Shown piece by piece: positions 143 to 33,002 of a DNA stretch of 64,000 nt. Each line of letters starts with the position of its first letter. Position 1 is the first letter of the stretch. The stretch covers positions 81,096,001 to 81,160,000 of the forward strand of contig OX597819.1 of NCBI GenBank assembly GCA_951406725.2, given 5' to 3'. The position numbers were made by a program, and so were the translations under genes. The DNA comes from Octopus vulgaris. Taxonomy: Eukaryota. The notes beneath the pieces are model-generated. The model ran no database searches, was not told where the DNA came from, and saw nothing but the letters and a program-made list of their open reading frames with translations.

Positions 143-145
<3 letters not shown>

Positions 146-469
146 TAAGTAATTAAGGGTTTAGCAACGAATTGCCTCACCAACACACCGAATTTAGAAA
201 TAGCAGTCAAAGAGATATAGCTATTCCTTCCACTAAAAGGGGGATCTCAGTAAAAACACAGCACTGAGATCCCCCTTTTAGTAGAAGGAATAGCTATATC
301 TCTTTGACTGCTATTTCTAAATTCGGTGTGTTGGTGAGGCAATTCGTTGCTAAACCCTTAATTACTTAGTATTACTTAAATTTTCCTCGAATGGGGCTTT
401 TACATGCCGAAATCTACTTGGTGTAATTGATAATTATTCCAAATTAATTAATTTCACCCTTTATTATTA

Positions 470-473
<4 letters not shown>
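143..473. mobile_element. Head-to-head inverted fragment of a (TA)n-embedded Penelope-LTR/retrozyme-like element
   Basis: About 143-251 is a near-perfect reverse complement of about 263-372. 263-473 is homologous (reverse complement) to 31823-32040. (TA)n lies on both sides. Confidence 0.7.
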
Positions 474-553
<80 letters not shown>

Positions 554-30399: not shown

Positions 30400-31690
30400 A
30401 TAAATTATAAATATTATCGCAATACTTGTTATTTTCCAGCACCGTGAAGGTAAAATTATAAATAGAAAATAGTGGTACAAGTAGGCACCAATGTTTGCTG
30501 GAAATAGCAGTCGATAACATTACGACGCTGAGTAAAGCTTCACTGAATGTATATTGGCGAAGATTGTGCGGGCAGCAAATATAAAAAATTTCGTTTTACA
30601 TCTAATAAGAACACCAGATAGATGGACAAGCTAGAGTGGATAATCTAGCGCTCGAGTTTCGAACTTTCCTAATATGCCTGTTATCGTAAATTCGGTTAGT
30701 CCTCATCTGCTAGGTTCACCAGAGACGAAATTTTAAAATAGTCGTTACACCAGTGCCAATATATTCGATTGAACGCCTAGCCGTAAACAGAACCGAGATT
30801 AGTGAAAAAGTTTTATATAAAAACTAGCAGTATCGCCCGGCGTTGCTCGGGTTTGTAAAGGAAATAACTATGTAAGCATTTTTAGAGAGTTATAGCCAAA
30901 AAAATAGCAAAATGTGGGAGTAGTTAGGAATCTAAATCGTAGGAGACAGACACACAACTTCACTTTTATATATAAAGATTATAAATATTATTGTAATACA
31001 ATAGTATTATTTTCCAGCTAAATAAAGCACTGTAAAGGTAGAATTATAAATAGATAATAGTGTTACAACAAGGCACCAATGAGTCGATAACAGTACGACA
31101 CTATGTAAAGCTTTACTGACAAAAATGTGTGCGGCAACGAGTATAAAAAATTCTCGTCTTACCTCTAGTAAGAAAATCAGAAAAATGGACAACCTAGAGT
31201 GGATAATCTAGTACTCGAGTTTAGGACTTTCCTAATGCATCTGTTATCATAAGTTTGGTTAGTCCTCATCAGCTAGATTCACCGGAAATGAAATTTAGCT
31301 AAAAATAATACTATTGTATTGCAATAATATTTATAATTTCTATATAATATTTTTTCACTGATCTCGGTTCTGTTTACGGCTTGGCGTTCAGCCGAATATA
31401 CTGGTATTGATGTAACGAATATTCTAAAATTTCGTCTCCGGTGAATCTAGCTGATGTACTAACCGAATTTACAGGCGTATTAGGAAAGTCCGAAACTCGA
31501 GTATTAGAGTATCCACTCTAGGTTATCCATCTATCTGGTATTCCTACTGGAGGTAAGGCGAACATTTTTTATATTCGTTACCTGCACACATCTTTGTCAG
31601 TATACATTCAGTGAAGCTTTACTCAGCGTCGTACGGTTACCGACTGCTATTTCTAACAAACACTGATGCCTTATTCTACCACTATTTTAT
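30400..31690. mobile_element. Array of an about 410-bp hammerhead-containing unit: about 1.7 tandem copies (-) plus one inverted copy (+)
   Basis: Units at 30400-30823, 30979-31296 and (inverted) 31297-31690. Hammerheads at 30642-30716(-), 31205-31279(-) and 31444-31510(+). Confidence 0.85.
30824..30978 (-). mobile_element. Complete 155-bp non-autonomous Helitron
   Basis: Minus strand A|TCTTTATATATAAAAG...CCCGAGC-AAC-GCCGGG-CGATACTG-CTAG|T, with no TSD. Removing it restores the host repeat as seen in the inverted copy. Confidence 0.9.
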
Positions 31691-31693
31691 ACA

Positions 31694-31727
<34 letters not shown>

Positions 31728-31751
31728 CATATACATATATTTATATATATA

Positions 31752-31822
<71 letters not shown>

Positions 31823-31826
<4 letters not shown>

Positions 31827-32436
31827 ATAATAACAAAGGGTAAAATTACTTAATTAACTAGTAATCAATAAATAATTTCACCAAAGTAGAATTCGGCATG
31901 AAAAAGGACCATTTCTCTGTAAACCTAAGTAATATTTTATAATTAGGGTTCAGCAAAGATTTGCTTTACCACATACCGAAGTTTAGAAATAGCAGCCAAA
32001 GAGCCTTAGCTATTTCCTCTACTTTAAAAAGAGACTCCCGGACAAAAACAAAGTACTTGAAAACAACCCACGTAGGCAGAGAGGAAAAATAACGAAACTC
32101 AATCGGTATTTGATTACCTATGGACGCGTTTCGGAATTAGATCAGTATAAAGAATGTAGAATTTATACTTTACCCAAACATTTTCCTCTTCAGCATGGGA
32201 CTTCACAATATTAAATCCGAAAGCACTGGAAGAATTGAATATACCTCCCCAACTAACAGTATCAGACAGATCATATTCAACGTCCAGTACCGCCGAATTC
32301 AAAACATACTTGCCCATCCACGTGTGTTGTCAAGTAAAAATACGACAGAAAAAATCTGTAGTTTATTATCAGGGAGAAAATTATATTATCAATAATAACA
32401 AAGGGTAAAATTACTTAATTAACTAGTAATCAATAA
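31823..32436 (-). mobile_element. 565-bp hammerhead monomer plus about 49-bp terminal direct repeat, abutting (TA)n
   Basis: ATCAATAATAACAAAGGGTAAAATTACTTAATTAACTAGTAATCAATAA occurs at 31823-31871 and 32388-32436. Confidence 0.85.
32117..32199 (-). ncRNA. Type I hammerhead ribozyme with extended helix II
   Basis: CCCAUG-CUGAAGA-GGAA...(AGUAUAAA/UUUAUACU inner stem)...UUCC-GAAA-CGCG-UC-CAUAGG. Helix III is palindromic (ACGCGU) and the triplet is GUC. Confidence 0.85.
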
Positions 32437-32556
32437 TTGCTGCATAAAAAATCTCTTGGCTGGAGGAAAGGTTCGTGATCCACTTATATACATACACTTA
32501 TTTCGGTTAGTGACTTATTTGCGAATATACCAACACTAGCGCCGCTGAGGGTAATA

Positions 32557-32830
32557 TTCTCTGGGAATGCACATAAGCCCTTTTCAGAGTTATTTACTTT
32601 GAATTGTTATTAACTCATACCTGATTAGCCTGTTATTACGTAACATGCTTCACGATTTTAGTATGCCTACCTTATTAGTATTCCCTCATAAGTTCTATAT
32701 ACTCTGGGAACGCTTTAAAGCCCTTTTCTGGGCTACTTTATTTGAATTCTTACTGTCGGGTAACTAATTTCATGTTATTACATAACTGACTTCACAATTT
32801 GGATATTCATAACTTGCTGTGAATTCTTAA
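32557..32830. repeat. Diverged tandem duplication of about 144 bp
   Basis: CTCTGGGAA...AAGCCCTTTTC...TTTGAATT recurs at about 32559 and 32702. Confidence 0.6.
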
Positions 32831-33002
32831 AAACAAGATCCTGTGTAAGACAGTTTGGCATTCCCTGTAAATGCAGAGAAACCGTTTTAAGGGTCACATA
32901 CTTTGTATTGTTGTTATTGGATTAGCGAAACAATTATGAGAACGGAATCAAGGGATAGGACCCGATTTCCCGGAAAATTACTAATATACATGCATACATA
33001 CA

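What the first reader, a model, noticed from the sequence alone, without database searches (positions are those of the whole stretch)
31823..32436. 565-nt monomer plus exact 49-nt overlap, anchored on (TA)n
Seen: identical terminal direct repeats, one intact hammerhead (GUC), the shared motif, and no convincing ORF. Inference: a slightly-more-than-unit-length copy is what reverse transcription around a circular RNA, or across tandem Penelope pLTRs, would leave. Identity of the repeats suggests it is recent.
Basis: partly seen in the sequence, partly recalled or inferred. Interest (0 to 1): 0.72.

Follow-up and report, generated by a model that had tools for sequence, protein, structure and literature searches.

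The report
Non-coding Penelope-type hammerhead mini-element
This is one of many scattered copies of a protein-free, roughly 580-base mobile element with a hammerhead-ribozyme fold; its short end repeat is likely left when a borrowed Penelope-type enzyme copies the same stretch of RNA twice, and its mirror-image insertions nearly always pair one long end with one short end, but no circular RNA has been shown.

Summary
There is a 50-nt exact direct repeat at a 565-nt period, a minus-strand type I hammerhead fold and no conserved ORF. It belongs to a dispersed family of 563-601-nt head-to-tail units, so the repeat is a pseudo-LTR, not target DNA. The family shows Penelope-like (PLE) hallmarks: (TA)n targets, variable 5' truncation, fold-back insertions and two fixed 3' ends about 109 nt apart (known tails are 30-40 nt). 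Fold-backs join one long and one short end in 47 of 48 cases. The scan noted that rule before in a shark genome. Within an insertion the overlapping copies agree at 147 of 149 subfamily-diagnostic sites, and none of 125 hammerhead motif hits forms a tandem dimer. The overlap is therefore likely made during reverse transcription. That slightly favours strand transfer on a linear, terminally redundant RNA. 'Recent' is unsupported, and the index hammerhead carries a stem I mismatch. Intact Neptune-like and Hydra-like PLEs are in the genome, but neither shares sequence with the unit. Verdict: new member of a known kind (non-autonomous PLE / retrozyme-like).

The parts
31823..32387 (-). One complete 565-nt unit (family units 563-601 nt, one of 543); non-coding, strongly structured RNA
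   Evidence: fold z = -7.7; 9 units z = -2.4 to -6.6 on the sense strand, weaker on antisense in all 9
32387..32436 (-). 5'-truncated upstream copy of the unit's 3' end (pseudo-LTR); 50 nt identical to 31822-31871
   Evidence: both copies carry a variant shared by 1% of other copies (unit position 539)
31822..31871 (-). Downstream copy of the repeat, ending at the long 3' end (inferred RT start site L) next to (TA)n
   Evidence: 85 of 179 arms end in this class, 67 with (TA)4 within 40 nt
31823..31931 (-). 'Tail' of about 109 nt between the short and the long 3' end
31932..31945 (-). Short 3' end (inferred RT start site S, unit position 456); internal in this copy, terminal in others
   Evidence: 76 of 179 arms end in this class (50 exactly at 456), 66 with (TA)4 within 40 nt
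31984..31996 (-). Motif GCTGCTATTTCTA in the best-conserved part of the unit; its core is shared with unrelated repeats; possible protein-binding site (untested)
   Evidence: (region 381-456 mean majority fraction 0.95)
32117..32199 (-). Type I hammerhead fold with 6-bp stem I (one C.A mismatch here), long stem-loop II and 2-bp palindromic stem III; predicted cut after 32123; activity untested
32207..32302 (-). Predicted long hairpin in the 5' part of the unit
   Evidence: MFE and centroid agree; covariation not tested
31688..31822 (.). (TACA)n(TA)n target microsatellite
32437..32475 (.). 39-nt filler at the 5' junction with no match in the fetched loci; no TA run and no target-site duplication on this side
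32476..32981 (.). Neighbouring, unrelated high-copy repeat, truncated at the junction side (the family continues at least 160 nt further)
145..474 (.). Diverged family member in the same window: fold-back with a short-end arm (about 145-265, minus) and a long-end arm (263-474, plus), TA runs on both sides

Best explanation
This is a copy of a dispersed, non-coding 563-601-nt head-to-tail element with a hammerhead fold, likely mobilised by the reverse transcriptase-endonuclease of a Penelope-like element (PLE), and its 50-nt repeat is a pseudo-LTR likely made by copying one RNA segment twice. SHOWN: family structure, (TA)n targets, two fixed 3' ends about 109 nt apart, variable 5' ends, one-long-one-short fold-backs, concordant overlaps, no tandem dimer among motif hits. 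INFERRED steps: (1) a locus of slightly more than one unit is transcribed from within its upstream partial copy, giving a linear RNA with repeated ends that is used uncut; (2) a PLE protein, probably a dimer, cuts both strands of a (TA)n run; (3) the two DNA ends prime reverse transcription inside the RNA, one at site S and one at site L, which gives fold-backs with one short and one long end; (4) a cDNA that reaches the RNA's 5' end transfers to the repeated 3' part and runs on, so the overlap is copied twice; (5) this copy is a single L-primed arm that stopped, or was later cut back, 50 nt into the second round. I put the class (non-autonomous PLE derivative) at about 0.9 and the two-site, two-strand priming at about 0.7. 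Linear strand transfer is about 0.45, against 0.3 for a circle.
For: Own-genome search: 3186 candidates, 40 scored, 79-95% identical for the long matches; 122 distinct loci mapped. 3' ends of 179 arms: 85 long, 76 short, 18 other. Fold-backs: 60 in 122 loci, 48 with both ends classed: 47 long+short, 1 short+short, 0 long+long, binomial p 2e-13. In the motif-selected set (overlapping loci): 43 fold-back loci, 33 classed, 31 long+short, 2 short+short, 0 long+long. Overlaps within one insertion agree at 147 of 149 diagnostic sites in 25 direct pairs (81.5 of 146 expected from other insertions) and at 480 of 517 in 62 inverted pairs. 125 exact motif hits (control 0), with no same-strand pair one unit apart. 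5' ends do not pile up at the predicted cut (5 and 6 arms in the flanking 20-nt bins of 217), so the template is continuous there. The stop rate follows template position alike for short and long arms (0.35 per 100 nt rising to 1.4-3.3). The genome holds intact-frame PLEs with the same layout: a 781-aa RT + GIY-YIG frame with two ends about 35-40 nt apart, and 894-994-aa frames with a hammerhead motif and two ends about 175 nt apart. One fold-back seen in each also joins long with short (L143, L179). In vitro, a PLE protein cuts and extends both strands, starts RT at two internal sites that define the tail, and does not need hammerhead cleavage (PMC11167929).
Against: No autonomous partner was found. 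The unit has no blastn match to the 3' regions of either intact family. Local alignment scores were 60 against a shuffled mean of 71 (Hydra-like) and 56 against 46, maximum 67 (Neptune-like). The limit at the second cut site is not absolute: L212 passes it by about 14 nt and L198 may pass it. In the junction-selected set 2 of 19 pass (p 0.06), and upstream lengths there fit an exponential (KS p 0.23). 5' ends show no sharp pile-up that would mark a single transcription start. Long direct repeats may be lost by recombination or assembly collapse, which would mimic a limit. Most samples are similarity-selected, and genome counts are lower bounds. No expression, cleavage or empty-site data.
Confidence: 0.72

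Rival explanations
1. Circular template: the unit is cut by dimeric hammerheads, ligated into a 565-600-nt circle, and the PLE enzyme copies more than once round it.
For: Overlaps are concordant (147 of 149). There is no extra stopping at the cut site. Stem I covaries, and variation falls at tolerated core positions 7 and 17. The unit folds strongly. L212 and perhaps L198 pass a second cut site. Slower second-round copying could come from displacing its own cDNA.
Against: No locus with two hammerheads in tandem among 125 motif hits, so no genomic source for double cleavage is seen. This hammerhead type needs a dimer and cuts weakly (PMC4209133). The stop rate tracks template position rather than one-round length (small numbers). 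PLE hammerhead cleavage was dispensable in vitro (PMC11167929).
Confidence: 0.3
2. Hidden tandem masters: a few satellite-like arrays, or partial tandems homogenised by gene conversion, give linear multimeric RNAs. The overlap is then simply inherited.
For: Metazoan non-LTR retrozymes are typically tandem arrays with dispersed monomers (PMC7229834; bioRxiv 10.64898/2026.07.22.740005). Arrays can collapse in assemblies.
Against: The longest colinear arm is about 900 nt in 122 loci. No dimer among 125 motif hits. Every subfamily sampled would need its own unseen array. Multimeric templates would let arms pass the second cut freely.
Confidence: 0.12
3. Stub of an autonomous PLE: the unit is only the terminal repeat of a longer coding element.
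For: Many PLE insertions are short terminal stubs (PMC8557442). Most arms here are shorter than one unit.
Against: All 47 arms that extend past unit position 1 continue into position 565 of the same unit. tblastn of the two PLE proteins against 40 motif-picked loci with 2-3 kb flanks hit 3 loci; L273 and L282 are not sense-upstream of the unit, and L297 was not examined further. No conserved ORF.
Confidence: 0.05
4. The 50-mer is a target-site duplication or a local duplication unrelated to transposition.
For: The repeats are identical and flank the unit.
Against: The 50-mer is the conserved 3' end of the unit at dozens of unrelated sites, and overlap length varies from 8 to 425 nt.
Confidence: 0.01

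Closest known systems
Endonuclease-positive Penelope-like element insertions (pLTR, tail, inverted 5' copy; PMC8557442, PMC3846280, PMC11167929)
   Same: Partial tandem giving a pseudo-LTR, 5' truncation, adjacent inverted copy, tail at one end, hammerhead in the repeat, AT-rich or (TA)n targets.
   Different: No ORF. The whole unit is 563-601 nt. The tail is about 109 nt, against 30-40 in these papers. One-long-one-short pairing is counted here (47 of 48); the passages I read say only that the tail is often at one end.
Non-autonomous Chlamys elements such as MRC1 (PMC8557442, passage)
   Same: Non-coding PLE derivatives that make pLTRs and head-to-tail insertions.
   Different: Those are often multicopy tandems, generally resemble their autonomous family at the 3' end, and come from a clade mostly without canonical hammerheads. 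This one has a hammerhead fold, stays below two units and has no identified partner.
Metazoan non-LTR retrozymes (PMC7229834; bioRxiv 10.64898/2026.07.22.740005)
   Same: Non-coding, type I hammerhead, GC below 45% (33% here), stable fold, presumed PLE dependence; the length is within the 51-972 bp range of the preprint.
   Different: They are defined by tandem arrays with at least two hammerheads and, where tested, by circular RNAs. No dimer was found here and no circle tested. About 300 bp is typical.
PLE hammerheads with short palindromic helix III (PMC4209133)
   Same: Type I, palindromic 15.2-16.2 region, G10.1-C11.1 in many copies, predicted to work as dimers.
   Different: Six-bp stem I with an approximately 300-nt-or-longer open loop, and a long interrupted stem-loop II; the first stem II pair is unpaired in 34 of 78 copies.

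Membership tests
Non-autonomous Penelope-like element | Partial-tandem insertions forming pseudo-LTRs with variable 5' truncation | tested here: met
   47 junction-crossing arms, upstream part 8-425 nt
Non-autonomous Penelope-like element | Adjacent inverted 5'-truncated copy | tested here: met
   60 fold-backs in 122 loci; 46 of 116 arms in the motif-selected set
Non-autonomous Penelope-like element | Optional tail (two 3' ends) | tested here: met
   85 long and 76 short ends of 179; about 109 nt rather than 30-40
Non-autonomous Penelope-like element | Hammerhead motif in the repeat | tested here: met
   motif and stem I covariation; no Rfam hit
Non-autonomous Penelope-like element | No RT/endonuclease ORF of its own | tested here: met
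Non-autonomous Penelope-like element | Sequence similarity to the terminal region of an autonomous PLE | tested here: inconclusive
   none to two intact families or 30 GIY-YIG loci; thousands of candidate loci and other clades were not examined
Non-autonomous Penelope-like element | Mobilised in trans by a PLE protein | not testable with these tools
   inferred from insertion anatomy
Non-LTR retrozyme (strict) | Tandem array with at least two hammerhead-bearing units | tested here: not met
   no same-strand pair one unit apart among 125 exact motif hits; longest arm about 900 nt; diverged or unassembled arrays would be missed
Non-LTR retrozyme (strict) | Type I hammerhead in a non-coding, low-GC, structured unit | tested here: met
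Non-LTR retrozyme (strict) | Self-cleavage and accumulation of circular monomer RNA | not testable with these tools
   only contigs of runs not on record as RNA were available
Autonomous EN+ PLE (stub) | Coding region upstream of the terminal repeat | tested here: not met
   upstream sequence is the unit's own 3' end
Plant-type LTR retrozyme | Type III hammerhead in true LTRs of fixed length, 4-bp TSD | tested here: not met
   type I fold, variable repeat length, no TSD seen at this locus

The most novel reading that the evidence does not exclude
The unit lives as a covalently closed 565-600-nt RNA that has no genomic dimer to come from. It would be made by hammerheads pairing between two RNA molecules or kept by RNA-to-RNA copying. 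A PLE enzyme dimer primes both cut strands of a (TA)n target on it at two sites 109 nt apart. This would be a viroid-like RNA feeding a Penelope enzyme, and the first genomic fingerprint that PLE pseudo-LTRs come from going round a circle.
Probability: 0.2. Interest if true: 0.8.

Novelty: new member of a known kind. Interest (0 to 1): 0.42.

Why it matters
How PLEs make identical pseudo-LTRs, inverted copies and tails is still open, and so is what their hammerheads do (PMC11167929, PMC8557442). This family is a compact, protein-free substrate with a short unit, so many insertions exceed one unit. Three constraints can be counted on it: the two arms of a fold-back use different start sites, the overlap is copied from one template segment, and copying rarely completes a second round. 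A 600-nt RNA plus either intact PLE protein of this genome would let circle and strand transfer be told apart in a tube. As an element it is ordinary in kind.

Tried and rejected
Rfam: nothing at gathering score, only microsatellite-driven miRNA hits at E<=10. MFE folding of the hammerhead alone does not give the active fold (z 0.16), as expected for a 2-bp stem III. Partner search: 30 GIY-YIG loci, 10 Neptune-like and 12 Hydra-like long loci; family copies near these sat in separate TA runs, not as their 3' ends. Expression: no RNA holder listed. Contigs of 8 coded runs were laid; none spans the locus, so there is no empty-site or circle test, and cover is dominated by related repeats. A pile-up of 5' ends at the hammerhead cut was looked for and not found. 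Apparent pile-ups at unit positions 79-84 and 172 coincide with indels against the index copy. A direct gapped-pattern search for dimers could not be run; spacing of the listed hits was read instead. L205 was dropped from the junction-selected count as a self-alignment artefact, and L230 as a duplicate of L229. 4 of 121 distinct motif sites did not align to the unit and 1 had under 60 nt downstream; these were left out of the 116. The idea that the right-hand neighbour is a second RNA captured as the missing arm was dropped: it is an unrelated truncated repeat without a hammerhead core. Earlier-findings search by sequence returned nothing.

Full report
1. Observation. The repeat is exact over 50 nt (31822-31871 and 32387-32436) at a 565-nt spacing and touches a (TACA)n(TA)n run. 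The element reads on the minus strand. I number the unit 1-565 from window 32387 down to 31823. A type I hammerhead fold spans unit positions 189-271 with the predicted cut after 265 (window 32123). Rfam does not detect it. Across 78 aligned copies stem I shows two-sided changes at three pairs, C-G to U-A in 8 copies and A-U to G-C in 4. Most core variation sits at the tolerated positions 7 and 17. These counts are copies, not independent events. The index copy has a C.A mismatch in stem I. Stem III is only two pairs round the palindrome ACGCGT, the type reported to need a dimer (PMC4209133, passages). The unit folds far better than shuffles (z -7.7; nine units z -2.4 to -6.6, sense better than antisense in all nine, 12 shuffles each). 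No ORF is conserved among 30 unit-length copies.

2. The family. The genome is 2.8 Gb in 227 contigs. From size and repeat content I guess an octopus-like animal; that label is my inference. The element gave 3186 candidate places, of which 40 were scored. Further searches with parts of the unit and with hammerhead motifs gave 122 distinct loci. All arms map to one head-to-tail unit of 563-601 nt (one of 543) in several subfamilies, about 70-95% identical to the index. 47 arms cross the 565/1 junction with 8-425 nt of upstream copy. The 50-mer is therefore the element's own 3' end, and the target-duplication reading is refuted. So is a stub of a coding element, since upstream of position 1 lies position 565.

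3. Two 3' ends. Of 179 arms of at least 60 nt, 85 end at the long site (about 561 to 6), 76 at the short site (50 exactly at 456) and 18 elsewhere. 67 long and 66 short ends have (TA)4 within 40 nt. Both sites are AT-rich with a few bases matching (TA)n. Of 60 fold-back insertions, 48 have both ends classed: 47 long+short, 1 short+short, 0 long+long (p 2e-13). One query favoured long ends, which makes the lack of long+long the safer half of the result. In the set chosen only by an exact hammerhead motif, 31 of 33 classed fold-backs are long+short, 2 short+short, and 10 have an unclassed end (loci overlap with the first set). Frangieh et al. (PMC11167929; parts 1-2 of 4 read) showed that a PLE protein cuts and extends both target strands, starts RT at two internal RNA sites whose spacing is the tail, and does not need hammerhead cleavage. 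They saw no strand difference in start site in vitro, which is a point against my step 3. Craig et al. (PMC8557442; passages) and Arkhipova et al. (PMC3846280; passages) describe 30-40-nt tails at one end. The latter explains inverted junctions by self-priming on an antisense template, a rival I did not test. The scan has noted the long+short rule in a shark genome (e1-9987643); I had recorded it here first.

4. Origin of the overlap. Overlapping copies within one insertion differ by 5.1% (25 direct pairs) and 4.8% (48 inverted pairs), against a mean of medians of 7.6% and 8.9% to other insertions. That is about twice the median private-change rate of 2.4%, so the difference is what ageing alone gives. 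At 58 subfamily-diagnostic columns, direct pairs agree 147 of 149 times (81.5 of 146 expected) and inverted pairs 480 of 517 (322 of 511 expected); 19 rare variants are shared by both copies of direct pairs. If upstream and downstream copies were inherited separately from partial-tandem sources they would drift apart, so something copies one segment twice. Tandem arrays were not found: 125 exact motif hits (control 0) include no same-strand pair one unit apart, and the longest arm is about 900 nt.

5. Circle or strand transfer. 5' ends do not collect at the cut site, so the template is uncut or re-ligated there. In 116 motif-selected arms the upstream reach falls off faster than a constant rate: 15 reach 400 nt, none reaches one unit, and 6.3 were expected. 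The stop rate rises with template position in the same way for short and long arms. In the junction-selected set 2 of 19 pass (p 0.06; L212 by about 14 nt, L198 with an internal deletion), and an exponential fits there. This favours RNA 5' ends inside the upstream partial copy, with transfer of the cDNA to the repeated 3' part. The lead that short copies may be front ends of the RNA came partly from e1-9034159. A circle with strand displacement on the second round, or loss of long direct repeats, could give a similar curve. The circle was proposed for PLEs in PMC4209133 and shown for tandem retrozymes in PMC7229834 (passages). Here no two-hammerhead locus was seen from which to cut one.

6. 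Partner. The genome holds an intact-frame family with RT, a CX4CXXC finger and GIY-YIG (781 aa, Neptune/Nematis-type by the motif given in PMC8557442). It also holds a young family with 894-994-aa frames and a hammerhead motif, which I call Hydra-like from recalled motifs; Pfam gave it no hit. Both end on (TA)n with two ends, about 35-40 and about 175 nt apart (counted by eye). Neither is alignable to the unit. The partner is unidentified.

7. Age and this locus. The index has 7 private changes in 565 nt (1.2%), younger than the median copy, but its best full-length relative is 90% identical. Fifty identical bases do not date it. Its 5' side joins a 39-nt filler and a truncated unrelated repeat, so the 50-nt length may reflect a later deletion as much as the RT stop. 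18 of 60 single-arm copies have TA on the 5' side.

8. Literature and verdict. Searches found the class well described: non-autonomous PLE derivatives (PMC8557442) and retrozymes as non-autonomous PLE sequences (bioRxiv 10.64898/2026.07.22.740005; parts 1-3 of 5 read, abstract to discussion). I found no account of this family, of tails above 100 nt, or of counted end pairing in the parts I read. A 2026 octopus repeat annotation does not use the word ribozyme in its main text (PMC13282606, passages). Repbase, Dfam and supplements were not seen. It works like a PLE and passes the layout tests for a non-autonomous PLE. It fails the tandem-array test for a strict non-LTR retrozyme. New member of a known kind; interest 0.42, for the mechanistic constraints rather than the element.

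Noticed in passing
L178-L189 (e.g. G000:C8:21322200-21329200): Young Hydra-like PLE family with intact 894-994-aa frames, a roughly 2-kb AT-rich 3' region, a hammerhead motif, 97-99.9% identical pLTRs and two 3' ends about 175 nt apart, far longer than the 30-40-nt tails in the papers read.
   Followed up: partly
L138-L147 (e.g. G000:C6:133343000-133350000): Neptune-like family with many intact 781-aa frames, an upstream coding-like stretch, pLTRs up to 100% identical over 504 nt and a 35-40-nt tail containing a palindrome. I saw no canonical hammerhead in its printed pLTR, though no dedicated scan of it was run.
   Followed up: partly
window 31644, 30510, 33283, 51552: The core CTGCTATTTC of the unit's conserved motif recurs in at least three unrelated repeats, in at least two cases 40-60 nt before a TA-rich run; it could be a shared PLE protein-binding signal.
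   Followed up: no
window 32476-32981: High-copy repeat with internal 143-161-nt subrepeats; relatives end in CTAG next to TA runs and one (L311) is a partial tandem. Helitron/DINE-1-like by recall only.
   Followed up: partly
window 31133-31244 and 31471-31582: 112-nt inverted repeat pair (84%) around a 226-nt spacer, MITE-like.
   Followed up: no
window 26739 (minus strand): A second, unrelated hammerhead-like motif (CTGATGA ... GAAAC AGCT GTA) with a long perfect stem II.
   Followed up: no
L042 (G000:C21:38885367-38885449): A family copy in which the 3' half of the hammerhead is triplicated at a 33-nt period.
   Followed up: no
L094/L095 and L046/L047: Near-identical copies with shared flanks in inverted orientation about 105 kb and 810 kb apart: segmental duplications or assembly duplicates.
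   Followed up: no
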